A stretch of 35,350 bases of DNA, taken from Candidatus Hermodarchaeota archaeon (GTDB lineage: Archaea > Asgardarchaeota > Lokiarchaeia > Sigyniarchaeales > SOKP01). The stretch spans positions 1 to 35,350 of the forward strand of contig JBHLLO010000030.1 in the NCBI GenBank assembly GCA_048885535.1, written 5' to 3'. The notes beneath the pieces were generated by a model. It was not told where the DNA came from and searched no databases. It worked only from the letters and a program-made list of their open reading frames with translations. Positions 1,880-35,350 of the stretch are shown here, one piece after another. Each line of letters opens with the position of its first letter. Within the stretch, counting starts at the first letter, position 1. The translations under genes and the position numbers were made by a program.

Positions 1880-2776
1880 ATGAATTTTTTTAATTTCATA
1901 GAAAAATTAAAAAGAAACGAAGCTGCCATAGTATTTTATTGTCTATTGAACAGAATTCCCATAATTGTTTTTGGTGACGATCAATTAAAAGTTGATGACT
2001 TTTTAATTGATTTATCGGAGCTTATTCACTTTAGGAAAGAATTGGTTTTTTACACAGATTTTATTTCGATATCTGAGTATGATGAATTAATTCAACATGA
2101 AAATATTGATTTTAATTCACAAAGATTTCATATTAGATGCCCTACTAATGTCGCACTTAAAGCTTTGAATCAATTTTCAAATTTTGATTCATGGCTGATA
2201 GGATTTGAAGTGCCTGATCATAAAGACAGAATAAATAATTTAATAATTAGTATTAAAAAGAAGTTGGATTTTTTTTTAAGCATATCATTATTCTCAGAGA
2301 AAATTTCAGTAAATTTGCAAGGACTTAGTTCAAAATTGATTGATTTATCGTTAGAACAAAACTTTCTTCAAAAAATTTCTCAAGATACAGAAAAATCCAT
2401 AACAAAGATGATGCGTGTATTATCTGAAAAGATTACACCTAATGATTTCCATAAAGATTTAATCCAATCCTTACTTGACTTTGAAAATGAAAAGAAGGAA
2501 TTGAAGAGAAATATAATTAAAAAGGAGATTCAGAATTTCTTCTCTGGATCAAAAAGAGCATTTTTCATATTATCAAGATTAAATTTATTGAATAATATTG
2601 ATATAAATACCAAAATTGGCAGCAAGACACTTTTAGATACGATAGATTATTATGATGCTCCGATTGATCGTGTAATATTTTTTATTAAAAAAGAATGGGG
2701 AGAAGACTTTTCAGCGATAATCGAAAATGGGAAAAAAGTCAATGCTCTTGATAGCATACAATCGTTATGGGGTTAG
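1880..2776 (+). CDS. Hypothetical protein with a putative DENN-core-like domain (folliculin/C9orf72 type)
   Basis: IVFYCLLNRIPIIVFGDDQLKVDDFLIDLSELI resembles the cDENN helix-strand-helix start, with later SWLIGF and FLSISL strands and a helical C-terminus. AGGTGG ribosome-binding site upstream. The domain call is by eye. Confidence 0.55.
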   Translation: MNFFNFIEKLKRNEAAIVFYCLLNRIPIIVFGDDQLKVDDFLIDLSELIHFRKELVFYTDFISISEYDELIQHENIDFNSQRFHIRCPTNVALKALNQFSNFDSWLIGFEVPDHKDRINNLIISIKKKLDFFLSISLFSEKISVNLQGLSSKLIDLSLEQNFLQKISQDTEKSITKMMRVLSEKITPNDFHKDLIQSLLDFENEKKELKRNIIKKEIQNFFSGSKRAFFILSRLNLLNNIDINTKIGSKTLLDTIDYYDAPIDRVIFFIKKEWGEDFSAIIENGKKVNALDSIQSLWG

Positions 2777-2780
2777 AGAA

Positions 2781-3374
2781 ATGATTTTTGATTATGAAAG
2801 TAAAGTATTACAAATAAAAATCGTATATTACGGTCCAGCGATGTCAGGTAAAACAACCTCCATAAAGTACCTTTTTTCATATTTTAAGAAAGAAAGTGAT
2901 TTAGAATCTATTGAAAGCTCCGTGGGACGTACTCTTTTTTTTGATTTTGGAGTTTTAAACTTTCAAGGATCTAATTGGGGCCTAAAGTTTTTAATATATT
3001 CGGCAACTGGACAGGATTTTTATGCTAGTACCCGTCCAGCAACATTAAATGGTGTTGATGGGATAATATTTGTAGTTGATTCACGTTTCAGTTATTTAAA
3101 ACACAACCTACGGTCATGGAATGAATTAAAATCTCTATTTGGGGAAGAAATTTATAATATTCCTATTGTAATTTCATTAAATAAATATGATTTAGAAGGG
3201 ATTAATAAATTAAAAGAAGTTGATTTCTTGAATTTAATTGATTTTAATTTATTTAAATATCTCTCTATAGAAAAAACTACGGCAATAAATGGAACAGGGC
3301 TTTTAGATTCTTTTAAAACAGTCGTTAATTTTATATTGCCAGAACTACAAATTAATACAAACTTAATTCAATAA
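2781..3374 (+). CDS. MglA-family small GTPase
   Basis: KIVYYGPAMSGKTT (P-loop), RTLFFDF (switch I), SATGQ (G3), GVDGIIFVVDS and NKYD (G4) match MglA. The ATG at 2781 is preferred over 2727, which overlaps the previous gene. Confidence 0.92.
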   Translation: MIFDYESKVLQIKIVYYGPAMSGKTTSIKYLFSYFKKESDLESIESSVGRTLFFDFGVLNFQGSNWGLKFLIYSATGQDFYASTRPATLNGVDGIIFVVDSRFSYLKHNLRSWNELKSLFGEEIYNIPIVISLNKYDLEGINKLKEVDFLNLIDFNLFKYLSIEKTTAINGTGLLDSFKTVVNFILPELQINTNLIQ

Positions 3375-3378
3375 GATT

Positions 3379-3561
3379 TTATTTTAATTTTTCATACATG
3401 TTTTTTGAAATCCGTTTGACATACCCTTGTTTGAAAAATTGTTTTAAGATATTTCTTACAAGTCGAACTTCTTTAGCATCAATCCTCAAAATAGACATTA
3501 ATTGAAAGATTGAAAAGTGTTTTGGTAACTGATCTTTTATATTATTATAAAGTCCTAAAAT
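3379..3561 (-). CDS. Small winged-helix-like protein not in the ORF track (probable ATT start)
   Basis: Manual translation: ILGLYNNIKDQLPKHFSIFQLMSILRIDAKEVRLVRNILKQFFKQGYVKRISKNMYEKLK*. It has a wHTH pattern with a GYVKRIS..MY wing. GGGTG lies just upstream of an ATT, and there is no ATG/GTG/TTG before the domain. Confidence 0.6.
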   Translation of the reverse strand: MLGLYNNIKDQLPKHFSIFQLMSILRIDAKEVRLVRNILKQFFKQGYVKRISKNMYEKLK

Positions 3562-3917
3562 AATGCACCCTATGATATGTGTTATTAATATATAAAGAAA
3601 AATGATGAATTCTATATATAGATTATTACATCCAAACGCTCTTCTAAAGGCTAAATTTCAAGTTTTTTCAATCTTCAAAATAACTATAAATTTTCATTCC
3701 TATTAATAATAGGTCATATTATAAATTTTTTCATCGATTTTTACAACTTGAGGGAAATCCTACTAGCTTTAATGGATTATACAAATTAGTTTCATTTTTT
3801 TCTTGATAGATTTCTATTTTTCATAAAAATGTTTCCAAAGATACATATTATCATAAGGATAAAATCTTATAATATTATTGGGTTTAATAGACATTAAAAA
3901 GAGGGTCTCAATTATTA

Positions 3918-4598
3918 TCAAAATGCTGCAATGTTTTTTTTAAAATCATTTCCTATAGGTGCCTTACCATCCCCATAAATCTGATATAAGCCTGTTCTTC
4001 TTGCGCATTCGCTAAAACTACGATATACATCTCGGTGTTTTTCATATAAAGCACAGGTTTTATATATAATTGGATTCCAAATATATAATTCATGATCTGG
4101 CTCATACCATAATTTTTCTTCCTTTAAAACTTGTTTGAAATCTTCCTCTCCAATAACTTCGGAAAGATCCTGTTTGTTCAACATAATTATCAGAGGGATG
4201 TCTTTTATTAATTTTCCTTGAGTCACTTTCTTAAGTTCTTTTAAGGATTCAATGTTATCCTCAAAAAAATGAGTTTGAGAATCAATTACAAATATCACTC
4301 CATCAGTACCTTTAAATATTTTTTGCCGTAAGGGAGAAAACCTACTTTGACCTGCTACAGTATAGACATGATAAAAAACTTTATTTTGCTTAGTTGATTG
4401 AAAAATTCCTCTATCGAAATACAGTGTAGATCCACTTGCCATTGAAATTTTAGTTAAATTTCCTGTAGGAGTTATTTCTTTCTTTTGTTCTTTTGTTAAT
4501 CTATAAAGAGTGTCAACTATAGTAGTTTTTCCTGAACCTCCCATTCCCCAATAGAGAATTTTGATATATATGTTGTGATCTGCTGTCCATCGGACCAT
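3918..4598 (-). CDS. Second MglA-family small GTPase
   Basis: KILYWGMGGSGKTT, STLYFDR, YTVAGQ, GTDGVIFVIDSQ, NKQD and TCA motifs. Confidence 0.92.
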   Translation of the reverse strand: MVRWTADHNIYIKILYWGMGGSGKTTIVDTLYRLTKEQKKEITPTGNLTKISMASGSTLYFDRGIFQSTKQNKVFYHVYTVAGQSRFSPLRQKIFKGTDGVIFVIDSQTHFFEDNIESLKELKKVTQGKLIKDIPLIIMLNKQDLSEVIGEEDFKQVLKEEKLWYEPDHELYIWNPIIYKTCALYEKHRDVYRSFSECARRTGLYQIYGDGKAPIGNDFKKNIAAF

Positions 4599-6493: not shown

Positions 6494-6597
6494 GCTTCTG
6501 TAGTGTAGTTCGGTCAAACTTTTCTTATAATGAGAGAAAGGGTAACGCATACGAGGCTCTCACCCTCGCGACCCGGGTTCGAATCCCGGCAGAAGCA
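6494..6597 (+). tRNA. tRNA-Glu(CTC) with a 29-nt D-loop intron (6518-6546, position 21/22)
   Basis: Acceptor GCTTCTG/CAGAAGC, anticodon arm CGAGG-CTCTCAC-CCTCG, T arm CCGGG-TTCGAAT-CCCGG. Removing 6518-6546 gives a 75-nt cloverleaf. No encoded CCA. Confidence 0.93.
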
Positions 6598-8846: not shown

Positions 8847-10052
8847 ATGACAGTTGATTATTTCGAAGATTTGTTAAAGAAGCCCTCAATATTTAAAGAT
8901 GAGAGCTCGCTCGATATCAATTTTATACCTGAAATGCTCCCGCATCGGGAAAAGGAATTGTCTTTACTCTCTCAATTATTCTTAATATTATTAACCGATC
9001 CAAACTCAATTTCAAGAAAAATACTAATCACAGGAAAAACGGGAATAGGGAAAACAGCAACAGTGAAATTATTTGGACAAATGTTATTAAATGCTTCAAA
9101 AAAAAGAAATATATCTATTAAGTATGTACATATTAATTGTAGAAAAGAACAAACTAGCTATAAAGTACTTATAAAGATTATTCGTTCATTAAATAAAAAT
9201 TTCCCAAAAAGAGGATATTCTCCTCAAGATTTATTAGAAATAATTATTGATTTTCTCGATAATCAAGATTTATATTTATTAATAGTATTAGATGAGTTAA
9301 GTTATTTAATAAATAAGAATGGGGATTTGATATATTCTCTTACTAGAATAAATGATGATTCAATTTGTAGTCCTCAAAGAACATCTATCATAGGAATTGT
9401 TAGAGACATTTCGTGTTTAAACAATTTAGATGCTAGTACAATAAGTACCCTTCAAAGAAATATTATTAATTTCAATATGTATTCTAAATCACAAATACGT
9501 GATATATTAAGGTACAGAGCTGAAATTAGTTTTAAAAGAAATTGTATTACTGAGGATATAATTGATATGATTTCAGATTTAGTTCTGAAAAATGGAGATA
9601 TTAGAAATGGTTTAAACATTTTATGGCGAGCGGGAAAAATTGCGGAGAGCAAGAACTTAAAATGCATTACACCTGAATGTGTTCGTCTTGGTAATCAAGA
9701 TTATGTTGCTTTTTCCACTCGAGATTCTTTACAATTTATGTCTTCTCCAAAACTTATTTTTTTATTATCAATAATTAAAAGCTTAAAGAAAAGTAAAAAA
9801 TCTCAAATATCTGTGGCTGAAATTTTAGAATTATATAATATTTTATGTGAAAGTTCAAGTAAAACACCTAAATCATATTCACAATTATGGAATTATCTTC
9901 AAGAATTTAAAAGAGAAAATATCCTGTCCATTAAGATTAAAAGTGAATCAATTAAAGGGAGAAAAGCTTTTATTAATATTCAAGACACTGGTTTATATCA
10001 ATTTGAAACAATTATTATTGATTTATTAAATTCAAAGGGGATTGATTTTTGA
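8847..10052 (+). CDS. cdc6: Orc1/Cdc6 replication initiator
   Basis: FIPEMLPHREKE, Walker A GKTGIGKT, YVHINC, Walker B IVLDELS, GDIR sensor and a C-terminal wHTH. Confidence 0.97.
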   Translation: MTVDYFEDLLKKPSIFKDESSLDINFIPEMLPHREKELSLLSQLFLILLTDPNSISRKILITGKTGIGKTATVKLFGQMLLNASKKRNISIKYVHINCRKEQTSYKVLIKIIRSLNKNFPKRGYSPQDLLEIIIDFLDNQDLYLLIVLDELSYLINKNGDLIYSLTRINDDSICSPQRTSIIGIVRDISCLNNLDASTISTLQRNIINFNMYSKSQIRDILRYRAEISFKRNCITEDIIDMISDLVLKNGDIRNGLNILWRAGKIAESKNLKCITPECVRLGNQDYVAFSTRDSLQFMSSPKLIFLLSIIKSLKKSKKSQISVAEILELYNILCESSSKTPKSYSQLWNYLQEFKRENILSIKIKSESIKGRKAFINIQDTGLYQFETIIIDLLNSKGIDF

Positions 10053-10342
10053 TTTCCAAAAATGAAAATAATTATCCTGATTTTGAAAAGATTTTTGGAT
10101 CAAAAGCCCGCATTAAAATCTTAAGAACTTTATCATTAAATTATGAATTATCAATATCTCAAATTATAAAGAAGACAAGATTAAATCATTCTTGTGTCTT
10201 AAAACATTTGAATTATTTAAAATCTGTGAACTTAATACATGAAAAGCAATTTGGGAGGATTAAAATCTATAGATATAAAATTGAGAATTTTAAAGCAAAG
10301 AGTTTAAAAATGTTTATCGAAATATGGGAAGAAAGGCATTAA
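10049..10342 (+). CDS. ArsR-like winged-helix regulator overlapping the cdc6 stop
   Basis: IFGSKARIKILRTL..LSISQIIKKTRLNHSCVLKHLNYL...LIHEKQFGRIKIY. TTGA overlap with cdc6. Confidence 0.88.
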   Translation: MISKNENNYPDFEKIFGSKARIKILRTLSLNYELSISQIIKKTRLNHSCVLKHLNYLKSVNLIHEKQFGRIKIYRYKIENFKAKSLKMFIEIWEERH

Positions 10343-10343
10343 A

Positions 10344-11009
10344 ATGCTCAATCTAATCATGTATTCTACAAACCTTATATTCATGACATCTGTACTAACA
10401 TATTGTTTGATTTTAGATATTAAAAATCGAAAAATACCTAATCAATCTGTTAAAGTGTTCTTTATAATTGCTGTAGTCTTATTTTTTACAGAAGCTTTTG
10501 TTTTTCTTGAAGAAATTTATCTTTTCTTTTTTGTCAAGTTTATCTTCGTGTTCTTTGCTACTTTTTTATCTTTTATTTTATTTTCATTGAAAATTATTGG
10601 GGGTGGTGATGGAAAAATTATCACTTTGATTTTTTTTATTTCTCCCATTAGTTGTCTAAATAGTTTATATCTCTTTAGTTTTTTTTTATTTTTAATTTTA
10701 TCCTATTTCATTTTGATAATAATTAATCTTTGTTTGAATTGTTTTACTGTAAATAGGTTCTCTTTTAAATTTTTTTTTCAAAACTTACCAAATGCAACAA
10801 CTTTTCGAAAATTTTATCTTTTATCATGTTTTAGATTTATAACTATCTCAAAATTATGTAAATATAAAAAGAATAAGTACATGATAATTTCATTAGACAT
10901 AATATTTAACCCAAAGTCTTGTCTTTTTCAGATATTCACCCAATTTAAGCCTCCCGTTATTTTATCTTGCTTTTTGTCTTATATTCTCTTACTTTTACTA
11001 AGATTTTAG
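10344..11009 (+). CDS. Prepilin peptidase (A24 family, GXGD aspartic protease)
   Basis: Multi-TM protein with LDIKNRKIPN and GGGDGK, which carry the two catalytic Asp. Confidence 0.88.
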   Translation: MLNLIMYSTNLIFMTSVLTYCLILDIKNRKIPNQSVKVFFIIAVVLFFTEAFVFLEEIYLFFFVKFIFVFFATFLSFILFSLKIIGGGDGKIITLIFFISPISCLNSLYLFSFFLFLILSYFILIIINLCLNCFTVNRFSFKFFFQNLPNATTFRKFYLLSCFRFITISKLCKYKKNKYMIISLDIIFNPKSCLFQIFTQFKPPVILSCFLSYILLLLLRF

Positions 11010-11154
11010 ATTTAAATTTTTGGATGTTAAATTTTAAAAAAAAAAGGAAAATTTCATTAATAGCTTGACAATTTTTGCTATAAAATAAATTTTAAATTTG
11101 TATATTTTTATAAACTAATTGAGAATGAATTAAATAAAATGTGAAAAATTACAT

Positions 11155-11538
11155 ATGGAGATTGAAAAAACTAGAGAAACTACTTGGAAAATTCGATTAA
11201 AGAAAGAGAATGAACACATTGAATTAACATCAGTTGAAATAAGTGGTGAGGTTAGGTTAATCAAATTAAGCTTATTAAAAGATGGGGGCTCGATAGTAGT
11301 ACAAATGAATAAAGAAGAATTTTTTAATTTTCTCTCTTTAATTGGAGCATTTAAAGATGTTGTAATTGGAGAAGATTCACTTATTTCAGAAGAGCGTCAG
11401 GTATTAGCTGAAGCTCAAGAAGCAAGCACTAATCAACAAAATAATGATGATTTATATCCATTAGATTCAGGATCTTCTGAAAAGTTAATTAAGAATGATG
11501 AAGAAGAGTTAAATCCTGAAGAATGGGATCCCTGGTAA
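11155..11538 (+). CDS. Hypothetical protein: compact beta4-alpha domain plus acidic tail ending EEWDPW
   Basis: 127-aa ORF with alternating hydrophobic strands, then an amphipathic helix and a low-complexity acidic C-terminus. Confidence 0.75.
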   Translation: MEIEKTRETTWKIRLKKENEHIELTSVEISGEVRLIKLSLLKDGGSIVVQMNKEEFFNFLSLIGAFKDVVIGEDSLISEERQVLAEAQEASTNQQNNDDLYPLDSGSSEKLIKNDEEELNPEEWDPW

Positions 11539-11547
11539 GAATACCTC

Positions 11548-12036
11548 TTAACTTGTTTTCTCGATTTTAAATTCACATGCATTTAGCTTATCATTTTCTA
11601 AACTACAATTACTTTCTGTGACATTGACTCTATATAGTGCAAATTCGCCAAAACCATTTAATAAACCATTAATGAAATAACAAACATATTTAGATTTATT
11701 TTCTAAATCATTGGTAATGTTTTTTTGTAATTGTATCACTATTAAATCTTCAGAAATTTGTCGAGGAATAAATTTCCCCCACCCATGATTACTCAAAATA
11801 TTACAAAATTGAGTAGTTAAGTCGTTAAGTGTTCTGGGTTTAAGGGTCTCATCCCAACTCTGTATTAAATCCCAACCCGTTTTTTTCCCAAGCCAAACTA
11901 ATAATGATTTTACTCCTTCACCATATATAGAGGATAAAATATCAATTAATTGTGGAGGAAAGAATACAAACCGATCTTCAAATAATTGATATATCCCTTT
12001 ATTATATTTTAAGCCCTTTAATTTCAAGTTTTTCAT
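11548..12036 (-). CDS. V4R-domain protein (V4R/Bet3-like superfamily)
   Basis: LGKKTG, GWGKF, CYFINGLLNG and VTESNC...CEFKI V4R motifs. Confidence 0.85.
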   Translation of the reverse strand: MKNLKLKGLKYNKGIYQLFEDRFVFFPPQLIDILSSIYGEGVKSLLVWLGKKTGWDLIQSWDETLKPRTLNDLTTQFCNILSNHGWGKFIPRQISEDLIVIQLQKNITNDLENKSKYVCYFINGLLNGFGEFALYRVNVTESNCSLENDKLNACEFKIEKTS

Positions 12037-12197
12037 AATTAAGTTTTAGATTTTTTTTTAATATTTTCAACGTAATTATTATAAACATAAAAGATTATTT
12101 CTCATGAAACTAATTTTAATGAATTAAATATTATATAATAATCTTATTTGGTCTATTTATTTTAAAAGCGATTTAAATATTTTTTTTTTAACTTATT

Positions 12198-12503
12198 TTG
12201 AGTATGTTTGAAATCTTTTTAACATTAACGGAAGTTCTTTCAATGCTAATGATTTTCATTCTAATTTTTATCTATTCAATTCTATCTTCAGATTCTCTTA
12301 TAACAACTATTTCATTTATTCTCTATTTAATTCTTTTAAGTCTTTTTTTATTATTATTGGAATATTTTAAACTATTAATTAGTCCGATAGCAATAGAAAA
12401 TAGAACAATTTTTGAATCAATTATTTTATTTTCTAGAGCAATAGTATATATTATTGGTGCAATATTATTCATAGAGTTAATTTACTTGCTGTTATTTAAT
12501 TGA
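12198..12503 (+). CDS. Small membrane protein (about 3 TM)
   Basis: Three hydrophobic segments; converges on the platform gene. Confidence 0.55.
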   Translation: MSMFEIFLTLTEVLSMLMIFILIFIYSILSSDSLITTISFILYLILLSLFLLLLEYFKLLISPIAIENRTIFESIILFSRAIVYIIGAILFIELIYLLLFN

Positions 12504-12521
12504 GCTACATTATGTAATTGC

Positions 12522-14054
12522 TTAAATTAAGTTTATAATATTGAAGTATGACACGAAAAAAATGATTACAAATAAGATACATGAGAAAAAGAGTAAAAAC
12601 AGCAATCTTTCATAATTTATGATTTTAAGGAAGTAATAGGAGGAGATTAAATTACAAGCAAGAAGACATAAAAAGGTAATTAGAAATTCATGAGAAATAG
12701 TTAACGTAAATAAGTTAACTATACCAATATTATCAAATGAAGAAAAATCAATAATCGATATAAATAGTGGAAACATACCCCCTATTGCACCCAGAATTAT
12801 TGGTAATAAAAAATAAAAGATTAAGACTTTAAACTTTTCACCCTTTATAATTAATTCTAATTTTTTTTCTAACTTTCTATGTTTTGATATTATATTTAAA
12901 AGCTCCAGGATTTTTTTAGAAGATTCTAAAGTATTTTCGAATAAAATTTTTTTTAAAACATCTATAATTATCCAATAACGAAATGCCTTCAATTCATATT
13001 GAAGGAACCCCATCATTTCAGTAAAAGAACAATTTAGATTTAATAGACGATTTATTTGTTCATCTAGTGGTTTACTCAACTTAATCAATTGATCTTTATG
13101 AGAAAAATACGAAGTAACAAATGCCTTTTCAGGAGAGATTTTATTTTTTAATTTAAGAGCAAAACTTTTAAGAAATAATAAAAATTCTTCAAAATTTTTT
13201 TTTTCATTTTTATTATAATTATTCAATAATCCTAATAAGAAAATGTCACTCTTAATAAAATTTTTAAACAAAATTCTCTGAATGAGAAAAAAAATTGGCA
13301 CAAGAATAATTAAGAAGTACAAATTTAAGCTATTAAATAATAACAGAAAACTTAAACCTAAGGGAAAAAATAAGCTAGTGAAGAAAATTATGCTTAATCG
13401 TGTTTCAATTTGTTTTAAATATATTTTGAATTTTTCCTCTAATACATTTGAATCGTTTTTAATAAGAAAAATCTGATTCTTAAAATTATTTAGAACCAAT
13501 CCTCTTACGTATTTGTTAAAATCTTTAGAAGGGCTAATAAAATTAATCAGTTCTCTTTCAGGGGCACCTCCTTCTTGAATTTTTTTTATAATAACTTTAA
13601 AGGATTTCGAAATAGGAAGGTTATATTCTTTGATCAATTGTATGAACACCAAGGAAAAATCAGAGTCATTTGATAATGACTTTTGCATTAATGAAAAATA
13701 AATTTTTATTAAATATAAAAAGGCATTTAACTTCATTTCTTCTTTATTAACAATTTTATAAAGTCTTAAATTGAAAAGATAGGCACAAATTATTGAAATA
13801 ATGAATGAATAACAAATAATTGTCATTATAGGGAAAGGTAAAAAAATCAAAGAGAATGAGAATAAACTCATAAAACTAATAATGAATATTATAAATGTTG
13901 CTTTGTCGATATCTTCCTGCTCGATTCCATATTCATTTCTAAATATGTAATTATAGTGTTCATTAACCTTTTTAAACTTTAATTTCGGAATTTTTAAATT
14001 ATGAAAACTTCGGCAGAACGCATTATATGTCCGATAATTTTTTATGTAGTTCAT
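12522..14054 (-). CDS. Type IV pilus / T2SS-F (TadB/TadC-like) membrane platform protein
   Basis: Two repeats of a cytoplasmic helical domain (IQEGGAPE; KISPEKAF) flanked by TM segments. Lies downstream of the secretion ATPase. Confidence 0.75.
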   Translation of the reverse strand: MNYIKNYRTYNAFCRSFHNLKIPKLKFKKVNEHYNYIFRNEYGIEQEDIDKATFIIFIISFMSLFSFSLIFLPFPIMTIICYSFIISIICAYLFNLRLYKIVNKEEMKLNAFLYLIKIYFSLMQKSLSNDSDFSLVFIQLIKEYNLPISKSFKVIIKKIQEGGAPERELINFISPSKDFNKYVRGLVLNNFKNQIFLIKNDSNVLEEKFKIYLKQIETRLSIIFFTSLFFPLGLSFLLLFNSLNLYFLIILVPIFFLIQRILFKNFIKSDIFLLGLLNNYNKNEKKNFEEFLLFLKSFALKLKNKISPEKAFVTSYFSHKDQLIKLSKPLDEQINRLLNLNCSFTEMMGFLQYELKAFRYWIIIDVLKKILFENTLESSKKILELLNIISKHRKLEKKLELIIKGEKFKVLIFYFLLPIILGAIGGMFPLFISIIDFSSFDNIGIVNLFTLTISHEFLITFLCLLACNLISSYYFLKIINYERLLFLLFFSCILFVIIFFVSYFNIINLI

Positions 14055-14067
14055 AACCCACCATTAG

Positions 14068-14481
14068 TTAAAAGATTTGAATTTCTATGATATTTAATTG
14101 ATACCGAATCTGCAAAGTATAAATCTGAGGAGTGAGGTTTTTGAAATTAGCGATTAGAAATTGGTTTTGGTATTCTACAATAGTAATGGATAGTTGATCA
14201 CCAAGGATATATTCATATTTAATATAAAACTCCTTTATGGAGATATTCAAGTTTTCTGGATAATTTATATTCTTTTGATAAGTACTATCTGGATTCTCAT
14301 TGATAGAAGTTATGCCTTGATCCAATTCATTTATAACATCGGAGTAAACCTCATAGTCTTCTCCATAATTTATGTTAAAGTTAAGGATTTGATTCCAAAC
14401 TGGAAGAACTAATGAAAGTAAAGATATAAGTATTAAAATACCTAAAGCAGTTAATAATGCTTTTTCTAATAAACTAGTCAT
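14068..14481 (-). CDS. Pilin-like protein
   Basis: N-terminal TSLLEKALLTALGILILISLLSLV hydrophobic helix with an early Glu, followed by a beta-rich domain. Sits between the ATPase and platform genes. Confidence 0.6.
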   Translation of the reverse strand: MTSLLEKALLTALGILILISLLSLVLPVWNQILNFNINYGEDYEVYSDVINELDQGITSINENPDSTYQKNINYPENLNISIKEFYIKYEYILGDQLSITIVEYQNQFLIANFKNLTPQIYTLQIRYQLNIIEIQIF

Positions 14482-14496
14482 ACTTTTTTTCTTTAT

Positions 14497-16683
14497 TTAA
14501 CAATTTAAACTTCTAGAACGCTTCCATGAGATCCAAAAATTTTCAAGTTTTTGTAAGGATATAAATGAGAAATATGATATCTGATCAAAAAAATCGAATA
14601 ATTCATTTAACGTAAGTTTTGGTATATTAAGCAAAAAATGAAATATCTCTTCATAGATTTGAAGATAAGCATAAAATTTTTTTGAGTTTAAAGATTCTAT
14701 TTTTCTCATTTTTTTTATACTATTTGTATTAAATAAATCTATTAATACGTCCCATCCATTTGATTCAGGATTATATTCAAATATACGCTTGTAGATCCCT
14801 TTTGAGGTTAATTCTAAATCATTAATTTCTGAAATGGATATTATTTTTCTATTATGACGAAATTTCTTCATTAAAATAATAAGATCCAAATCTTGTAGAC
14901 ATGATTTATCTATTTTAAAATGAAATAAGAACCTATTAATAAGGGAGTCAAGATCGTTTGAGTGAATAGTTTGAAATCCTCTAAGTCCCGCTGCTAAACA
15001 ATGGAACATCGCATTAGCTTCTCCTTTAGTAAGAATTTCTCCCAAATATATAATGTCTGGTGTTCGATGTAATAATTTTTTGATTTGGTTTTGTTTGGAG
15101 AACTTCTGCTTAAATGTATTCTCTTGTGAATCTACTTTATATTTTAATTGGTGCCTTTCGTAGCTCGATTGATTTAATGATTCTGTTATTGATTCAACAT
15201 ATATTTTCCTAAACTCCTTAGGAATAAGTAAATCTAACGCATTTATGAGAGTTGTTTTTCCTGTATTAGTTTCACCTGTAACAGTAAGATTGGTTCTTCT
15301 TGTGATATTAAAGTATAAGTAGGCCGCAATGTTAGGACTTAAAGTTTTGTTTTTCAATAAATCTTGAATTGTAAAAATATTTTTATTTAATTTTCTTATA
15401 TCTAATGAAAATTTGTTTAAACTTATGGGTTCTGTATCAACAGCAAATCTACAATAAAAAAATTTATTGTTCAGAACAAGTTTTATGCTTGGATTGGCAT
15501 AATCAATTGCTTTGCCACTGTATAACCTTATTAGTGTCTTAATACGTTCAAGTTCTATTGAACTAAAACCGGTTTTGGTTCTACAGCGCCCGAATTTCTG
15601 ATGATCGATATATATTGTATCAATTGGAGAATCTAAGAATATTTCTTCAACATTATCGTCAACTAAGAAAGGAAATAACTTATGAATATTTAATTTTTGA
15701 AGAGTTGTTAATAAAGCTAATTTTTTTACTTTTTCTTTAGAAAATTTATATTTTGAATTGATATATTCAATTGCCTTTTGTTCATAAATCTCGATCAAAT
15801 CTTCAAGTGATATGATTTTATCTACATTTAAGAGCTCTAAATTTCTGCTAATATCGTTTATAATTTTGGAATGATAGATTTCTTCTAATTCTGATTCAAA
15901 GGCAAATTTTACATTATATAATTTCTCAAATTCATTAGGAATCTTGTAAATTAGTATCTTGAATAAGTTATGGGGTCCAATATTATATTCATCTATCAGA
16001 TTCTCTTCATATTGTCTTTGAATTTCTTTTGGATATCTCAATTCATTTATGCCAAATTCAAAGCTAAAAAAGTATTTTTCATAAAAATTTGAGTTTACAG
16101 TTGAATTTTTTATTCTTTTCTGGAATTGAATATACTCCTTAACTATCTTTAACTCTTTTAATATTTTTAATAGAGCCTTAAGTGAATACCTTAGTGATCT
16201 CTCACACCTAACACAATAAGATTCTAATTTTGTATTAATTTTATAATTGTCCAATTTCGCGCTAATTAAATTGTAAACATATATAGGATCAATATATTGA
16301 TCATCAGATAGAGAAAAATCAAGGTAATCATTAGTAAAAATTTTACATTGAAAGGTTTTTAGATCACATTTTTTTTTTCTTAGATTTTGAATTTTTTCAA
16401 TAACGCTCTTTATTTTTTTCAATTTCTTAAAATACTCTAATATTGGAGTACATCTAAAAAAAGGGATTTCAGCATTAGAGATTCCTAATGATAAATAATT
16501 AAAATTAGTATCTTGAAGTGAATTTAGTGACTTTAATATACATCTAATGCATTTCTTTCTGTTAAATTCACTTAATTCTGCGCTCACACACTTTTTACAG
16601 TTTAATATCAGTATTCTCTCTTTTTTTCCTTCAAAGTTCTCTCTTTCACGGGAAGTAAGTTGATAGTTTAGTTTTAATGACAT
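14497..16683 (-). CDS. VirB11/TadA(CpaF)-family pilus assembly ATPase with a Cys-rich N-terminal extension
   Basis: DDNVEEIF, SLDIRK, Walker A GETNTGKTT, RTPDIIYLGE and His box QTIHS. Confidence 0.92.
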   Translation of the reverse strand: MSLKLNYQLTSRERENFEGKKERILILNCKKCVSAELSEFNRKKCIRCILKSLNSLQDTNFNYLSLGISNAEIPFFRCTPILEYFKKLKKIKSVIEKIQNLRKKKCDLKTFQCKIFTNDYLDFSLSDDQYIDPIYVYNLISAKLDNYKINTKLESYCVRCERSLRYSLKALLKILKELKIVKEYIQFQKRIKNSTVNSNFYEKYFFSFEFGINELRYPKEIQRQYEENLIDEYNIGPHNLFKILIYKIPNEFEKLYNVKFAFESELEEIYHSKIINDISRNLELLNVDKIISLEDLIEIYEQKAIEYINSKYKFSKEKVKKLALLTTLQKLNIHKLFPFLVDDNVEEIFLDSPIDTIYIDHQKFGRCRTKTGFSSIELERIKTLIRLYSGKAIDYANPSIKLVLNNKFFYCRFAVDTEPISLNKFSLDIRKLNKNIFTIQDLLKNKTLSPNIAAYLYFNITRRTNLTVTGETNTGKTTLINALDLLIPKEFRKIYVESITESLNQSSYERHQLKYKVDSQENTFKQKFSKQNQIKKLLHRTPDIIYLGEILTKGEANAMFHCLAAGLRGFQTIHSNDLDSLINRFLFHFKIDKSCLQDLDLIILMKKFRHNRKIISISEINDLELTSKGIYKRIFEYNPESNGWDVLIDLFNTNSIKKMRKIESLNSKKFYAYLQIYEEIFHFLLNIPKLTLNELFDFFDQISYFSFISLQKLENFWISWKRSRSLNC

Positions 16684-30872: not shown

Positions 30873-31086
30873 TTATCTTTTTGATTCTAAATTGAAAAAT
30901 GGATGTATCTTTATTAAGATGGAAGGCTTAAGGGTGAAAATATAACTTTTATATAAGTAATAAAATTTTTTAGCTATCCATTATTTGAATCATTCAATCA
31001 AAATTAAATATTATCATTTTTGATTTAATTATTAAATAAAATAGATTAATAGAAACTAAGATAACTCATAACTGGGAAGGTACGCT

Positions 31087-31190
31087 GGGAGAGAGACCTC
31101 CTTTAGTTAAGGGGATTCTCAAATGGCTTAGCCTGGTATAGCGCACGGCTGATAACCGTGAGGTCGGGGGTTCAAAGCCCCCCTTTCCCA
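31087..31190 (+). tRNA. tRNA-Ile(GAT) with an approximately 30-nt insert (31094-31123) at the acceptor/D-arm junction (7/8)
   Basis: Anticodon arm CACGG-CTGATAA-CCGTG, T arm GGGGG-TTCAAAG-CCCCC and 3' acceptor strand CTTTCCC-A. The complementary 5' strand GGGAGAG lies 30 nt upstream of TGGCTTAG. Confidence 0.85.
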
Positions 31191-31276
31191 TTAAGCTTAT
31201 AAACTTTCTCATATAAAGTTCAATCTTTATTTTATTAGAAAATAAACCTCTAGAAACACATACTATAAATTAAGAT

Positions 31277-31870
31277 ATGAAAATTGTGATAATCTCAGGA
31301 ACTCCTGGTACTGGAAAAACTACAGTCTCTAAAGCGATATCTAAAAAATTAAAGGCTAGATTAGTATCATTAAACGACTTAGTTATGCAAAAAGGTTTTA
31401 TAATTAGCTATGATTCGAATAGAGATACTTTTATTTTCGATGAGAAAGCAATTATAAAATTCATTCTTGATTTAATTAAAAATTATGATTCAAAAAATGT
31501 AAATTTTCTTATAGTCGAAGGCCATTTTTCAGATATAATTCCGGAGAAGTTTATTGATTACATAATAGTTTTAAGGTGTCATCCTGATGAGTTATTAATA
31601 AGATTAAAGAAAAAGGGTTATGGTAAATTAAAAATTGTTGAGAACATTCAAGCGGAAATCCTCGGGAATTGCGTAAGCTATTTCATTAATAAAGGTATTA
31701 AAATGCCAATATTAGAAATTGATACAACAAATTTAAACGTACACACGATCGAAAAAATTATCATTGAGATTATAACAGAAGAAAAAAAAATTGAACAATA
31801 CATTATAGGAAAAGTTGATTGGTTAGAAAATCTTTATCAACAAAATCGTTTAGATGAATTTTTTGATTGA
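31277..31870 (+). CDS. Adenylate kinase AK6/Fap7 family
   Basis: ISGTPGTGKTT, VEGH, VLRCHP..L..RL..KGY...KI.ENIQAEI. Confidence 0.93.
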   Translation: MKIVIISGTPGTGKTTVSKAISKKLKARLVSLNDLVMQKGFIISYDSNRDTFIFDEKAIIKFILDLIKNYDSKNVNFLIVEGHFSDIIPEKFIDYIIVLRCHPDELLIRLKKKGYGKLKIVENIQAEILGNCVSYFINKGIKMPILEIDTTNLNVHTIEKIIIEIITEEKKIEQYIIGKVDWLENLYQQNRLDEFFD

Positions 31871-31896
31871 ATTCTATATGTTAGAGATGAAAGTAA

Positions 31897-33546
31897 ATGG
31901 AATTTGAACTAATTGATAGTGAAGCGCTAGCAAGAATCGGACGGATTAGATTAAATAATCAAGAATTAATCACCCCTAACCTTTTGCCAGTCATCCATCC
32001 TTTCAAGAACTTAATCACCCCAAATGAGTTATTAAAAATGGGAGTAAAAGCCTTATTTACTAATGCTTATATCATCTATCAAAACCAAGATTACAGAAAT
32101 GTGGTATTAACAAAAGGGATTCATGATTATTTAAACTTTCATGGATTAATAGCGACAGATAGTGGAGCCTTTCAACAGTATATCTATAGAGATAATGATA
32201 TTGAGATAAATCCAATTGAAATTGAAAGCTTTCAAGAAAAAATTGGATCTAACTTCCCCGTTATTCTCGATTCCCCAGTCCAATTAGATGATGATTATGA
32301 AACAGCAAAAAATAAAGTTAGATTAACATTGCGCAGAGCGAAGGATAATATTGCCAGAAGAGAAAATAGGGATTGTGCTTGGATAGGACCTATCCATGGA
32401 GGTAAGTTCTTTAATTTGGTAAAAAAATGTGCTTCTGCAATGGAAAAATTAGATTTTAATATTTATGCCATTGGGGGATTAGTTAAGGCTTTTCTAAATT
32501 ATAGATTTGATTTGCCTTTAAGAATCTTGCTAACTATAAGGAAAAATGTCATTTCGAGTAAACCTATTCATATGTTTGGGTTAGGATTACCTCAATTTTT
32601 TGCACTTGCGGTAGCATTTGGATGTGATCTCATGGATTCTGCAGCATATATGCTATATGCAAAAGAGAATCGCTATTTCACATTATCAACAGGTACAAAA
32701 AAGCTTGAGGAACTTGAAGAGTTTCCATGTCATTGTCCAGTTTGTTTAAATTATACACCAAAAGAATTAATGTCTTTTGAAAAAAGCATGAGAATCAAAA
32801 TATTGGCAGAACATAATTTACATCTTTCATTTTCAGAACTAAAAACAATCCGTCAATCAATTAGGGAAGGAAATCTCTGGGAATTAGTTGAAAATAGAAT
32901 TAGAACTCATCCTAATCTAGTAATGGCTGCTAGGTTGTTACGGAAAAATAAAGCTTTCTTTGAAATCCATGATAAAATAGTTAAAAGGCATGGAAGATTA
33001 TATAGCTCTTATTATAGCTTACATAGACCGACGATTTATAGGTATGTACGTAAATTATCTAAAAATTATCGTGTTCCTAATGATGTTAAATTTATAATTA
33101 TTCTACCTGAGTTGGATGTTAAAGGTTATAATTCACCTAGCATTAAAAGTTGGTTAAGTGAAATAGTAAGCAATCAGAAAATTCAATTAAAGTATATTCA
33201 TATAGTTTTTTTCTCCCAAATTTATGGTATTATACCATATGAATTAATAGATACCTTTCCAATGGGACAATATGAATCAATAAAGGCTTCATACAGAAAT
33301 GACTTAATTCATAAAACCTCAATAAAATATAGTCTAAGATTTTTTCAAAATCATTCGCATCACTATGAAAAATGGTTTATTCTTCTTCCCGCAATATATA
33401 TCAACCAGTTTAATGAATTTAAAAAGTTTCCTATCCATTATCCTCTAAAGCAATTAATTAATTACTTGAGAAAGCAATTTAATCCAAATTTATTTGTTTC
33501 TGATGCCATTAAAGATTTTATAAGATTTTTCGAAGAGACCACGTAA
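31897..33546 (+). CDS. tgtA: Archaeosine tRNA-guanine(15) transglycosylase
   Basis: ARIG..TPNLLPVIHP, TDSGAFQ, PIHMFGLG, GCDLMDSAAY, Zn site CHCPVC and HNL. Confidence 0.95.
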   Translation: MEFELIDSEALARIGRIRLNNQELITPNLLPVIHPFKNLITPNELLKMGVKALFTNAYIIYQNQDYRNVVLTKGIHDYLNFHGLIATDSGAFQQYIYRDNDIEINPIEIESFQEKIGSNFPVILDSPVQLDDDYETAKNKVRLTLRRAKDNIARRENRDCAWIGPIHGGKFFNLVKKCASAMEKLDFNIYAIGGLVKAFLNYRFDLPLRILLTIRKNVISSKPIHMFGLGLPQFFALAVAFGCDLMDSAAYMLYAKENRYFTLSTGTKKLEELEEFPCHCPVCLNYTPKELMSFEKSMRIKILAEHNLHLSFSELKTIRQSIREGNLWELVENRIRTHPNLVMAARLLRKNKAFFEIHDKIVKRHGRLYSSYYSLHRPTIYRYVRKLSKNYRVPNDVKFIIILPELDVKGYNSPSIKSWLSEIVSNQKIQLKYIHIVFFSQIYGIIPYELIDTFPMGQYESIKASYRNDLIHKTSIKYSLRFFQNHSHHYEKWFILLPAIYINQFNEFKKFPIHYPLKQLINYLRKQFNPNLFVSDAIKDFIRFFEETT

Positions 33547-33548
33547 AA

Positions 33549-33968
33549 ATGCCAATTATAGAAAAAATCCAAGCATATGGTCATTCTAATATAAGTTGTA
33601 CTCATAAAACAACAATAGAGATAACAAAAGATAAATCTATTACGAATAGAGCTACATGTATTCTAGCAATAAATGCTTCGAAATCTTGCTTTGATTTAAA
33701 TAAAGAACTTAAAAAGAGGATATTTAATGGAGAAAAAATTAAAGTTACTATAAAAGTAAATAACATTTCAGATCATTTTTTCGGCTTTGGTGATAAGAAA
33801 CTTCATTTACAAAGTCGAAAAGAGATAGTATTTCGTAAGAGTGATTATATTTGCGATAGAACAGTATTAATAAAATGTTCAAAATCCTCTAATGAATTAA
33901 AACGGGAACTTATTGAAAAAATTAAAGTACCTGGAAAAAAAATTATATTACTTTTTGAAGCTATTTAG
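33549..33968 (+). CDS. DUF371 family protein
   Basis: AYGHSNI..THKTTIEITKD...CILAI, IVFRKSDYICDRTV. Confidence 0.9.
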   Translation: MPIIEKIQAYGHSNISCTHKTTIEITKDKSITNRATCILAINASKSCFDLNKELKKRIFNGEKIKVTIKVNNISDHFFGFGDKKLHLQSRKEIVFRKSDYICDRTVLIKCSKSSNELKRELIEKIKVPGKKIILLFEAI

Positions 33969-35132
33969 ATGTTGATCAGGGTGAAAAAATTAAGCACAAA
34001 ATCACAATTTTTAAAGTTGAATAAAAAAGACGCTCAAACTTTCCTTAATCTTATTAAGAAAAAATTAAAGAGTGAAAAATTTATCGATAATAGAAAGAAA
34101 GTAATTTCAGAAGGGCAATTCGTGTTTTTCCCTTTAATTGAAAATAAAAATCAAATTGAAAAGCTAACTAAATATATTGAACCTAATATCTTTTTTGAAA
34201 TAATTCATCGAGAATCATGTAACTCTTTAGATAGCAACCTTAAAACAATTGGAGAGATTTTAAAAAACGATTTACCCCCCAAGATTTTCAAACTTATACC
34301 GAAATCGTATGATATTATTGGTCATATTGCTATTATTGAATTCGATCGCTTCAAAAATATTAGCTATAGGGATGCTATTAGATATAAAAAAACATTCGCA
34401 AAAGCATTACTGAATACAAATAAAATCGTAAAATCTATATATGAAAAGAAGAGTAAAATAAAAGGAAGATTTAGATTAAGAAACTTAAAATTATTAGCAG
34501 GAAAAGACCAACCACGCACAATTTATAAAGAAAATAAATGTATTTTTAATCTAGATGTAAAGAAAACTTATTTTTCTCCTAGATTGGCTTATGAACGGAA
34601 AAGATTGGCTAGTTATGATATAAAGGATCATGAGTTAATAATTGATATGTTTGCAGGTGTTGGTCCATATTCGATTCAAATAGCAAAAGTTCATGATGTC
34701 GAGGTTTATTCTTTTGATATTAATCCAATAGCCTATAAATACCTTATAAAGAATATTCTATTGAATAAAATGAAGGGGAAAGTAAATGCATTTAATATTA
34801 ATGCAGAAGAACTTCTTAAATCAACAAATACTTTAGGAAATGAGCTAAAGCATAAAGCAAACAGGATTATTATGAATCTCCCTCAAAAAACCCTCAAATT
34901 TATTGATGTTGCATGTTTTTTAATGAAATTATCAGGTGGGATCCTCCATAACTATCAGATTGTTAATAGTCAGAATTCAATTGAAATAGCAATAAAAAGT
35001 TTGTGTTTAGCTTTAGAAAGATCATTTTGGACTGTTGAGAAGATTATTGATTACAGAATTGTAAGAGCGTATTCTCCAAGATTAAATTTCGTGGTAGTAG
35101 ATTCATTAATTAGACCATCAAATTATCCTTAA
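33969..35132 (+). CDS. trm5: Trm5/Taw2-family SAM-dependent tRNA G37 transferase
   Basis: SYDIIGHIAI, T.YKEN.C.F.LD..KTYFSPRL, DMFAGVGPY, DINP.A and RIIMNLP. Confidence 0.9.
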   Translation: MLIRVKKLSTKSQFLKLNKKDAQTFLNLIKKKLKSEKFIDNRKKVISEGQFVFFPLIENKNQIEKLTKYIEPNIFFEIIHRESCNSLDSNLKTIGEILKNDLPPKIFKLIPKSYDIIGHIAIIEFDRFKNISYRDAIRYKKTFAKALLNTNKIVKSIYEKKSKIKGRFRLRNLKLLAGKDQPRTIYKENKCIFNLDVKKTYFSPRLAYERKRLASYDIKDHELIIDMFAGVGPYSIQIAKVHDVEVYSFDINPIAYKYLIKNILLNKMKGKVNAFNINAEELLKSTNTLGNELKHKANRIIMNLPQKTLKFIDVACFLMKLSGGILHNYQIVNSQNSIEIAIKSLCLALERSFWTVEKIIDYRIVRAYSPRLNFVVVDSLIRPSNYP

Positions 35133-35275
35133 TATCTTTTTTATAATCGTTCTCGAAGATATTAATAAAATGTTTTTAGATGTTTATTATAAAAGTAAAA
35201 TTTTAATTTTTTAATACTTATAAAACTTTAAACCATAATATTTTTCACTTTAAAAATTAAAATAATACAAAGAAA

Positions 35276-35350
35276 GGACCTGTAGCCTAGCATGGATAGG
35301 GCGTCGGACTTCTAATCCGAAAGTCGCAGGTTCGAATCCTGCCAGGTCCG
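35276..35350 (+). tRNA. tRNA-Arg(TCT), intronless
   Basis: GGACCTG/CAGGTCC acceptor, TCGGA-CTTCTAA-TCCGA anticodon arm and GCAGG-TTCGAAT-CCTGC T arm. Confidence 0.97.

What the first reader, a model, noticed from the sequence alone, without database searches (positions are those of the whole stretch)
31074..31190. tRNA-Ile(GAT) apparently split by an intron at position 7/8
Seen: the 7 nt before U8 (TCTCAAA) cannot pair with CTTTCCC, but GGGAGAG at 31087-31093 pairs 7/7. The intervening 30 nt fold into a BHB/BHL-like motif: GGAG|AG^A bulge, hairpin CTCCTT/AAGGGG, then CTCA|AA^T. Cutting after the second nucleotide of each bulge gives exactly GGGAGAG-TG-GCTT. The central helix has 3 bp plus a terminal G.A, the same irregularity as the tRNA-Glu intron here. 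I do not recall 7/8 among reported archaeal intron sites. Inference: a rare or new intron position and a lineage-specific splice motif, leaving a 5' exon of only 7 nt plus leader.
Basis: partly seen in the sequence, partly recalled or inferred. Interest (0 to 1): 0.75.

Follow-up and report, generated by a model that had tools for sequence, protein, structure and literature searches.

The report
Interrupted tRNA-Ile gene in an Asgard archaeon
An isoleucine tRNA gene of an Asgard-type archaeon lacks its first seven bases at the expected place and is most likely repaired by cutting out a 30-base intron just after base 7, an unusual site for a known kind of intron.

Summary
An intact tRNA-Ile(GAT) body (U8 to A73) lies at 31124-31190, and the 7 nt in front of it cannot form the acceptor stem. 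GGGAGAG (31087-93) pairs 7/7. The D-arm intron of tRNA-Glu in this window has the same odd shape.

Three things temper the reading.
- A second 7-mer, GGGAAGG (31074-80), pairs equally well. RNAfold prefers it (pair probabilities 0.96-0.99), and it sits where the GC-rich island begins. It has no splice motif, so I take it as leader, perhaps a decoy strand.
- No relatives were obtained. My only genome scan used too broad a pattern and returned 120 unrelated loci, so nothing is tested by covariation.
- Introns near or in the acceptor stem (3/4) and heavily interrupted Asgard tRNA genes are already in print. I could not check whether 7/8 is catalogued.

Verdict: a probable new member of a known kind. 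The mature 5' end is unresolved. Interest is moderate.

The parts
31072..31086 (+). GC-rich 5' leader holding the second candidate acceptor strand GGGAAGG (31074-80). CTGGGA at 31072-77 repeats at 31085-90. GCT at 31084-86, together with G31087, can pair with T31124-C31127.
   Evidence: Sequence. The GC-rich island starts at about 31073/74. GGGRRRG matches 15 times on both strands of the window. RNAfold pairs 31074-80 with 31183-89 at probability 0.96-0.99.
31087..31093 (+). Proposed 5' exon: acceptor-stem nucleotides 1-7 (GGGAGAG).
   Evidence: It pairs 7/7 with 31183-89, with one G-U. It is the only exon end with a splice-motif-like fold. The in-silico splice is read as tRNA-Ile(gat), 74 nt.
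31094..31123 (+). Proposed 30-nt intron between tRNA positions 7 and 8. Inner hairpin 31098-31103 / 31109-31114, loop 31104-08. The 3' part CTCA (31118-21) pairs with exon GGAG (31088-91).
   Evidence: Geometry. 10/12 pairs against a chance value of 4.8 +- 1.7, P 0.003. The register costs +5.0 kcal/mol over the MFE, similar to +6.5 for the tRNA-Glu intron.
31124..31190 (+). 3' exon: tRNA-Ile(GAT) positions 8-73, with D-arm, anticodon arm, T-arm and 3' acceptor strand CTTTCCC plus discriminator A. No encoded CCA.
   Evidence: Rfam tRNA 44 bits, model 5-66. Cloverleaf drawn by ARAGORN after in-silico splicing.
6494..6597 (+). Comparator in the same window: tRNA-Glu(CTC) with a 29-nt intron (6518-6546) at the end of the D-loop (21/22), in the same relaxed motif shape.
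   Evidence: Rfam tRNA 54.1 bits, full length with a 34-nt insert. Geometry. The in-silico splice is read as tRNA-Glu(ctc), 75 nt.

Best explanation
This is a working but interrupted tRNA-Ile(GAU) gene of an Asgard (Promethearchaeota-like) archaeon.

The mature 5' strand is GGGAGAG (31087-93). A 30-nt intron (31094-31123) sits between nucleotides 7 and 8.

In the precursor, exon nucleotides 2-5 pair with the 3' end of the intron. This gives a 3-bp central helix plus a G.A. A 3-nt bulge AG^A holds the 5' cut. The intron's own hairpin is the inner helix. The 3' cut (AA^T) lies in a loosely structured loop. This is a relaxed HBh'/bulge-helix-loop substrate.

A broad-specificity (alpha-beta)2 splicing endonuclease cuts both sites, and an RNA ligase joins G7 to U8.

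Transcription probably starts near 31074. The 13-nt leader carries a second complementary strand (GGGAAGG). I infer that it occupies the 3' acceptor strand while the true 5' strand is engaged in the splice motif. After splicing the strands swap and RNase P removes the leader.

Shown: the sequence anatomy, the pairing statistics, the folds.
Inferred: the cleavage sites, the enzymes, the start of transcription, the role of the leader.
For: - The body is intact and tRNA-like, but the adjacent 5' strand is missing.
- Of the three boundary pairs that restore a cloverleaf, only 31093|31124 has a splice-motif-like fold: 10/12 pairs, P about 0.003 at random places and 0.0024 for intron shuffles. The other two score 5/12 and 3/12.
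- The G5.U68 wobble of this strand fits a double duty: G31091 pairs with C31118 in the central helix. The A at that place in the other copy would mismatch.
- The better-attested tRNA-Glu intron in the same window has the same shape and a similar folding cost (+6.5 against +5.0 kcal/mol).
- The window is Asgard. Ribosomal protein L3 is closest to proteins named Promethearchaeota, 88% identity and below. Roadblock and Arf/Ras GTPase genes are present.
- Asgard tRNA genes are often interrupted at non-canonical sites (PMC11291895, passages; preprint 10.64898/2026.10.13.758758, abstract and sections 2.2, 2.3 and 4.8).
- Asgard genomes are reported to encode (alpha-beta)2 EndA with the L1 loop, which is linked to relaxed motifs (PMC5829648, passages).
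- For the leader role: deleting 31074-80 in silico raises the cost of the splice register from 5.0 to 10.7-11.1 kcal/mol.
Against: - GGGAAGG (31074-80) pairs equally well: MFE of the spliced products is -32.0 against -32.4.
- RNAfold puts GGGAAGG in the acceptor helix with probability 0.96-0.99, in the precursor and even after in-silico splicing with the leader kept.
- The GC-rich island begins at 31073/74, whereas tRNA-Glu and tRNA-Arg are AT-rich right up to +1.
- The motif is only 3 of 4 central pairs with no outer helix in register. The purine run GGGAGAGAGA allows several registers. A shifted register (31093|31123) has a 4-bp outer helix but would leave one extra A.
- There is no covariation or conservation: 0 of 120 fetched loci is a close relative.
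- No endonuclease, ligase or RNase P gene was among the 33 ORFs scanned, so the enzymes are inferred from the literature.
- In the shuffle control for the decoy idea, shuffled 7-mers gave nearly the same cost (mean 5.6), because G/A-rich shuffles still pair.
Confidence: 0.5

Rival explanations
1. The mature 5' strand is the distal copy GGGAAGG (31074-80), at or near the transcription start. The whole 43 nt up to U8 (31081-31123, or 31082-31124, because T occurs at both 31081 and 31124) is the intervening sequence, at 7/8 or 8/9. GGGAGAG would then be just part of the intron's purine-rich stem.
For: - 7/7 pairing; ARAGORN reads the in-silico splice as tRNA-Ile(gat).
- It is the acceptor strand in the MFE and in 96-99% of the ensemble.
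- The GC-rich island starts here, and the upstream DNA is AT-rich right up to it, as for tRNA-Glu and tRNA-Arg.
- A TATA-like ATTAATAG lies at -29..-22 from 31074, similar to the spacing in front of tRNA-Arg. This is my reading and is weak in 27% GC DNA.
- The preprint notes that a substantial minority of Asgard intervening sequences lack a canonical motif.
Against: - There is no splice motif at either boundary pair: 2/4 or 1/4 central pairs, 5/12 and 3/12 pairs overall, which is chance level. No known enzyme would define the cuts.
- The full GGG of the inner copy and its 7/7 match to the 3' strand would then be unexplained. GGGRRRG occurs only 9 times on this strand of the 35-kb window.
Confidence: 0.2
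2. Two introns give the same mature sequence as the main explanation, but the tRNA's 5' end is at 31074. A 13-nt mini-intron (31078-31090) lies inside the acceptor 5' strand: at 4/5 by the motif, anywhere from 1/2 to 4/5 by sequence because CTGGGA is repeated. The 30-nt intron lies at 7/8.
For: - The direct repeat CTGGGA (31072-77, 31085-90) forms a symmetric core. CTGG pairs with CTGG 4/4 (two G-C, two G-U), with bulges GA^A and GA^G. This is my reading using the geometry.
- It explains the CT in front of both copies and the start of the GC-rich island.
- Introns of 11 nt and an intron at 3/4 are reported (PMC4090602, passages).
Against: - There is no outer or inner helix, so it is not counted as BHB-like under the published rule (section 4.8 of the preprint).
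- Two of the four central pairs are G-U and close a 6-nt loop.
- The central helix needs two leader nucleotides, and it clashes with the predicted acceptor pairing of 31074-80.
- Any direct repeat of CTGG would pair this way, so this is not independent evidence.
Confidence: 0.07
3. The upstream copy has no function. It is a scar of the event that disrupted the gene, either a partial duplication of the tRNA's 5' end or an integration and excision of a mobile element at the 5' terminus. This is compatible with the 7/8 intron and rivals only the decoy idea.
For: - A 5' tRNA fragment lying upstream of an intron-gaining tRNA-Thr gene was described in Caldiarchaeum and ascribed to integration of a mobile element (PMC3293823, abstract and Discussion).
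- The repeat extends 2 nt beyond the acceptor strand (CT), which looks like shared descent.
Against: - In a 27% GC genome an unselected GC-rich 13-mer should decay.
- The two copies differ only by pair-preserving A/G swaps at positions 5 and 6, while the flanks differ (7 of 13 identical, my count).
- The repeat finder reports no direct repeat family in 31040-31210 at its thresholds.
- No integrase or element is nearby in the Pfam scan.
Confidence: 0.25
4. The locus is a dead or dying gene copy or an assembly artefact, and the working tRNA-Ile(GAU) is elsewhere in the genome.
For: - Standard finders fail or report a truncated match.
- Only 35 kb of the genome is visible, so a second copy cannot be excluded.
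Against: - The body keeps all four arms and, by my reading, the universal nucleotides U8, A14, G18 G19, U33, G53 T54 T55 C56 and C61, at 56% GC in a 27% GC genome.
- Two complementary 5' strands are kept.
- Archaeal chromosomes mostly carry non-redundant tRNA genes (statement in PMC3293823, Discussion).
Confidence: 0.1

Closest known systems
Non-canonical archaeal tRNA introns with relaxed BHB motifs (HBh', hBH, BHL), for example the HBh' intron at 20b/21 in the D-loop of Methanopyrus kandleri pre-tRNA-Glu(UUC)
   Same: A short intron outside the anticodon loop. The 5' cut lies in a 3-nt bulge flanked by a central helix and an intron helix, and the 3' bulge is disrupted. Such introns are cut efficiently only by endonucleases with an extra loop (PMC5829648, passages). 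The tRNA-Glu intron in this window lies almost at the same place.
   Different: The Ile intron lies between the acceptor stem and U8, so the central helix borrows acceptor-stem nucleotides 2-5. The central helix has 3 pairs plus G.A in both introns here. No cleavage data exist.
Acceptor-stem intron at 3/4 in certain Thermoproteales tRNAs
   Same: An intron very near the 5' end leaves a 5' exon of only a few nucleotides. tRNAscan-SE 2.0 extends candidates by 60 nt to catch such cases (PMC4090602, passage; PMC8450103, passage).
   Different: Different position (7/8), different phylum (Asgard against Thermoproteota), and a second complementary strand in the leader. I could not read the primary catalogue (Sugahara 2008), so I do not know whether 7/8 is listed there.
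[quoted passage not shown]
   Same: Same superphylum. Many non-canonical, often D-arm, intervening sequences are missed by standard annotators. Other Asgard families have a median of 0.86 per gene (PMC11291895, passages; preprint section 2.2). Here 2 of the 3 tRNA genes in the window are interrupted.
   Different: This window is closest to Promethearchaeota-named proteins, not to the two intron-rich classes. The position lists are in supplements I could not see.
tRNA-Thr 5' fragment upstream of an intron-gaining tRNA-Thr gene in Caldiarchaeum subterraneum
   Same: [quoted passage not shown]
   Different: There the fragment is 1.8 kb away with a recombinase gene in between. Here it is 13 nt away, only 9 nt long, and no element is present.

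Membership tests
Archaeal endonuclease-spliced (BHB-type) tRNA intron | Removal of the intervening sequence restores a complete cloverleaf tRNA | tested here: met
   Joining 31087-93 to 31124-31190 in silico gives a 74-nt tRNA-Ile(gat) by ARAGORN. The unspliced region is not called.
Archaeal endonuclease-spliced (BHB-type) tRNA intron | [quoted passage not shown] | tested here: inconclusive
   3 of 4 pairs (G.A at the outer position), which is the relaxed class only. Chance for the inner three pairs plus the first two inner-helix pairs at fixed boundaries is 0.0115.
Archaeal endonuclease-spliced (BHB-type) tRNA intron | Two 3-nt bulges holding the cut sites | tested here: inconclusive
   The 5' bulge AG^A is clean. 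The 3' site AA^T has no outer helix in register, so it is a loop rather than a bulge. A shifted register with a 4-bp outer helix would leave an extra A.
Archaeal endonuclease-spliced (BHB-type) tRNA intron | At least one flanking helix (h or h') of 2 or more contiguous pairs | tested here: met
   h' is G95-T117 and A96-T116, then one mismatch, then 6 bp: 7 of 8 positions paired.
Archaeal endonuclease-spliced (BHB-type) tRNA intron | Motif and exon pairing kept in relatives (conservation or covariation) | not tested
Archaeal endonuclease-spliced (BHB-type) tRNA intron | Actual cleavage and ligation; spliced RNA observed | not testable with these tools
   No RNA data are available.
Archaeal endonuclease-spliced (BHB-type) tRNA intron | The host encodes a broad-specificity splicing endonuclease | not testable with these tools
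   None among the 33 ORFs scanned in the window. Only the literature statement for Asgard is available (PMC5829648).
Split or permuted tRNA gene | The missing part is encoded elsewhere or downstream, with a complementary leader and trailer | tested here: not met
   Two complete candidate 5' strands lie in cis, 30 and 43 nt upstream on the same strand.
tRNA pseudogene or fragment | Degraded arms or lost universal nucleotides | tested here: not met
   The body scores 44 bits over model positions 5-66 and forms all arms. It is 56% GC in a 27% GC window.

The most novel reading that the evidence does not exclude
The GC-rich leader copy (GGGAAGG, 31074-80) is a functional surrogate acceptor strand. 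It holds the 3' acceptor strand in a tRNA-like minihelix while the true 5' strand is lent to the splice motif. After splicing it is displaced and trimmed. That would be a built-in conformational switch that makes introns next to the acceptor stem spliceable. No paper I read describes such an element.
Probability: 0.15. Interest if true: 0.6.

Novelty: new member of a known kind. Interest (0 to 1): 0.35.

Why it matters
- **Annotation.** tRNA-Ile(GAU) reads the common AUU/AUC codons and is usually single-copy in archaea. A gene that ARAGORN misses and Rfam truncates would make a genome look as if it lacked an essential tRNA. Incomplete tRNA sets in Asgard and DPANN genomes have been blamed on such hidden disruptions (PMC5829648).
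- **Enzyme range.** A spliced 7/8 intron would extend the range of sites that the Asgard endonuclease must handle to one where the splice helix competes with the acceptor stem.
- **Intron origin.** The duplicated 5' strand may be a trace of how the intron arrived, which the 2026 preprint calls an open question (abstract).

Tried and rejected
- **Genome scan.** I scanned genome contigs with a degenerate pattern running from the anticodon arm to the T-loop. It was too broad. 0 of 120 loci has the T-loop AAAG or the acceptor strand CTTTCCC. 112 of 120 have a contiguous 5' strand 29-31 nt before G30. The other 8 are L022 (cut by the contig end), L040, L046, L054, L057, L058, L107 and L111.
- **Splice motif for GGGAAGG as exon.** None at 31080|31124 or 31081|31125.
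- **Helix GCTG/TGGC (31084-87 with 31124-27) as a central helix.** It is 4 bp, with TAC and AAA beside it. Both bulges lie 5' of their strands, the mirror image of a BHB. Rejected from the geometry.
- **Sequential removal.** Taking out the 30 nt first and then 31081-93 would give GGGAAGG-U. The second step has 0/4 central pairs (my reading). Rejected.
- **Repeats.** The repeat finder on 31040-31210 found no direct repeat families and no similarity between the Ile and Glu introns.
- **Promoters.** TATA-like words are too common in 27% GC DNA to decide where transcription starts.
- **RNAfold as arbiter.** The splice register is 5.0 kcal/mol above the MFE. The better-attested tRNA-Glu intron costs 6.5, so this does not discriminate.
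- **Shuffle control for the decoy idea.** Not informative, because G/A-rich shuffles still pair.
- **Literature.** The phrase 'positions 7 and 8' gave 9 papers; none of the 9 listed titles concerns archaeal tRNA introns (search listing only). Marck & Grosjean 2003 and Tocchini-Valentini 2011 are not held. Sugahara 2008 has no PMC id. Searching the held supplement zip of PMC11291895 for 'intron' returned only annotation tables, not the intron table. bioRxiv supplements are closed. Searches added nothing on 7/8.

Full report
**What is there**

The window is archaeal and very AT-rich, at 27.3% GC. It holds the 5' part of a 16S rRNA gene (1-523, minus strand) and three Rfam tRNA matches.
- tRNA-Arg(TCT) at 35276-35350 is uninterrupted.
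- tRNA-Glu(CTC) at 6494-6597 has a 34-nt insert in the D-loop of the Rfam alignment.
- A truncated match lies at 31121-31186: 44 bits against a gathering score of 29, covering model positions 5-66 of 71.

ARAGORN finds only tRNA-Arg.

Reading, the third match is a complete tRNA body from U8 (31124) to the discriminator A73 (31190). It has anticodon GAT, all three arms, and 3' acceptor strand CTTTCCC (31183-89). The seven bases in front of U8, TCTCAAA, pair with that strand at 2 of 7 positions.

**Lineage**

Ribosomal protein L3 (16819-17838) has its best named relatives in proteins called 'Promethearchaeota archaeon', at 88% identity and below. The top hit, at 95%, is unnamed. The window also encodes a Roadblock/LC7 protein and two Arf/Ras-type GTPases. 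I take it to be an Asgard archaeon.

That matters for three reasons.
[quoted passage not shown] In three complete Atabeyarchaeia and Freyarchaeia genomes, 92-95% of tRNA genes carry introns (PMC11291895, passages).
- Other Asgard families have a median of 0.86 intervening sequences per gene, and tRNAscan-SE missed 30% of them in the focal families (preprint 10.64898/2026.10.13.758758, abstract and section 2.2).
- Asgard genomes are reported to encode (alpha-beta)2 splicing endonucleases with the L1 loop, which goes with relaxed motifs (PMC5829648, passages).

**Two candidate 5' strands**

The 3' strand needs GGGRRRG. This word occurs 15 times on both strands of the window, 9 of them on the plus strand. 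Two of these lie 13 nt apart just upstream of the body: GGGAAGG at 31074-80 and GGGAGAG at 31087-93.

By my arithmetic, about 0.015 such words are expected in 60 nt. Two are therefore not chance.

Each pairs 7/7 with one G-U. Joined in silico to the body, each gives a 74-nt RNA that ARAGORN reads as tRNA-Ile(gat). The MFEs are -32.0 and -32.4 kcal/mol. The repeat is really CTGGGA (31072-77 and 31085-90).

**Splice motif test**

I used the published geometry, as restated in section 4.8 of the preprint:
- four exon nucleotides upstream of a 3-nt 5' bulge pair with four intron nucleotides upstream of a 3-nt 3' bulge;
- cuts fall after the second bulge nucleotide;
- flanking helices are h (exon) and h' (intron).

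Three boundary pairs restore a cloverleaf.

| Boundaries | Central helix | h' (of 8) | Total (of 12) |
|---|---|---|---|
| 31093\|31124 (reader) | 3/4 (G88.A121, G89-C120, A90-T119, G91-C118) | 7 | 10 |
| 31080\|31124 | 2/4 | 3 | 5 |
| 31081\|31125 | 1/4 | 2 | 3 |

Random places in the window give a mean of 4.8 pairs (sd 1.7) and P(>=10) = 0.0033. Shuffling the intron gives 0.0024. The stricter pattern, inner three central pairs plus the first two h' pairs, has P = 0.0115.

It is still only the relaxed class. [quoted passage not shown] Here the boundaries have no slack.

A shifted register (31093|31123) adds a 4-bp outer helix (G84-C127 to G87-T124) but would leave an extra A before U8. The purine run GGGAGAGAGA permits such slippage.

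**The tRNA-Glu comparator**

The sensible boundaries for tRNA-Glu are 6517|6547. They keep A21 and give an 11-nt D-loop, and ARAGORN reads the in-silico splice as a 75-nt tRNA-Glu(ctc).

They show the same shape:
- a G.A at the outer central position (G6512.A6544);
- three further pairs;
- an A-rich 5' bulge;
- no outer helix;
- a long h';
- 10 of 12 pairs.

It is n = 2, and the Glu boundaries were chosen among a few candidates.

M. kandleri pre-tRNA-Glu has an HBh' intron at nearly the same site, 20b/21 (PMC5829648).

**What speaks for the other strand**

- RNAfold puts GGGAAGG in the acceptor helix. In the MFE of 31074-31194 the energy is -47.7 kcal/mol, z = -2.26, and 3 of 200 shuffles fold as well. 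In the ensemble the pair probabilities are 0.96-0.99, against 0.003 for GGGAGAG.
- This still holds after in-silico splicing with the leader kept.
- The GC-rich island begins sharply at 31073/74, whereas tRNA-Glu and tRNA-Arg are AT-rich right up to +1.

The folding cost is not decisive, because the better-attested Glu intron costs +6.5 kcal/mol for its own motif.

**Putting it together**

Every route I could construct that uses an endonuclease-type motif ends in the mature strand GGGAGAG. The strand GGGAAGG has no motif.

Why would a 13-nt leader be GC-rich and complementary to the 3' strand? My inference is as follows. The central helix borrows acceptor nucleotides 2-5. The motif can therefore form only if the acceptor stem is open. 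A leader strand that occupies the 3' strand makes that cheaper.

In silico, removing 31074-80 raises the cost of the motif from 5.0 to 10.7-11.1 kcal/mol. The shuffle control in the same call was uninformative. This decoy idea is the most novel reading, and I give it about 0.15.

Other readings of the upstream copy:
- It may be a scar of a partial duplication or of a mobile-element event. A precedent is the 5' fragment upstream of an intron-gaining tRNA-Thr gene in Caldiarchaeum (PMC3293823).
- It may be part of a second, 13-nt mini-intron defined by the CTGG/CTGG repeat. That would have four central pairs but no flanking helix, so it does not count as BHB-like under the rule.

**Known or new**

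- Reviews list non-canonical sites such as 20/21 to 59/60, and 3/4 'in an extreme case' (PMC4090602, passages).
- tRNAscan-SE 2.0 extends candidates by 60 nt to find introns near the ends (PMC8450103, passage).

An intron next to the acceptor stem in an Asgard genome is thus a member of a known kind.

I could not establish whether 7/8 itself is catalogued. The primary catalogues were not held or not searchable. The supplements that list Asgard intron positions were not readable (bioRxiv supplements are closed).

**What stayed open**

- No orthologue was seen. My one genome-contig scan used too broad a pattern and returned 120 unrelated loci.
- No RNA data exist for this locus.
- No endonuclease, ligase or RNase P gene lies in the window.
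- The mature 5' end is therefore a prediction.

Noticed in passing
window 6494-6597: tRNA-Glu(CTC) with a 29-nt intron (6518-6546) between A21 and G22, at the end of the D-loop. ARAGORN misses it and Rfam finds it with a 34-nt insert. It has the same relaxed motif with an outer G.A as the Ile intron.
   Followed up: yes
window 31277-35350: tRNA-Ile is followed by a run of genes: an AAA_18 kinase-like gene, a TGT-family (archaeosine-type) transglycosylase, DUF371 and a TRM5/TYW2 methyltransferase. tRNA-Arg(TCT) then lies at 35276-35350. Several of these are tRNA-modification genes, so this is a tRNA-centred neighbourhood.
   Followed up: no
window 866-4598: A 333-aa protein carries only an N-terminal Roadblock/LC7 domain. 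Next to it are two Arf/Ras-family small GTPases (2727-3374, 3918-4598). This is the eukaryote-like signature typical of Asgard archaea.
   Followed up: no
window 31040-31210 (script): With its intron option, ARAGORN miscalls the region as 'tRNA-Ala(agc)' with an intron, starting at about 31073. Automatic annotation of this locus could therefore be wrong rather than merely missing.
   Followed up: no
L040, L107, L111 (Thermoplasmata MAGs), L057 (Bathyarchaeia MAG): In these tRNA-Ile(GAU) genes the DNA just upstream of G30 is not a contiguous tRNA 5' half. No complementary acceptor strand lies 29-31 nt away. They probably carry introns in the D-arm or anticodon stem.
   Followed up: no
window about 296-320 (minus strand, 16S rRNA): The 16S rRNA 5' domain carries an insertion of roughly 20 nt relative to the Rfam archaeal SSU model, near model positions 194-198 (alignment).
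   Followed up: no
window 8847-16683: A Cdc6/Orc1 gene (8847-10052) lies near a prepilin-peptidase-like gene (10344-11009) and a 728-aa T2SSE-type ATPase (14497-16683), with several unannotated ORFs between them. This may be a pilus or archaellum-like cluster beside a replication gene.
   Followed up: no
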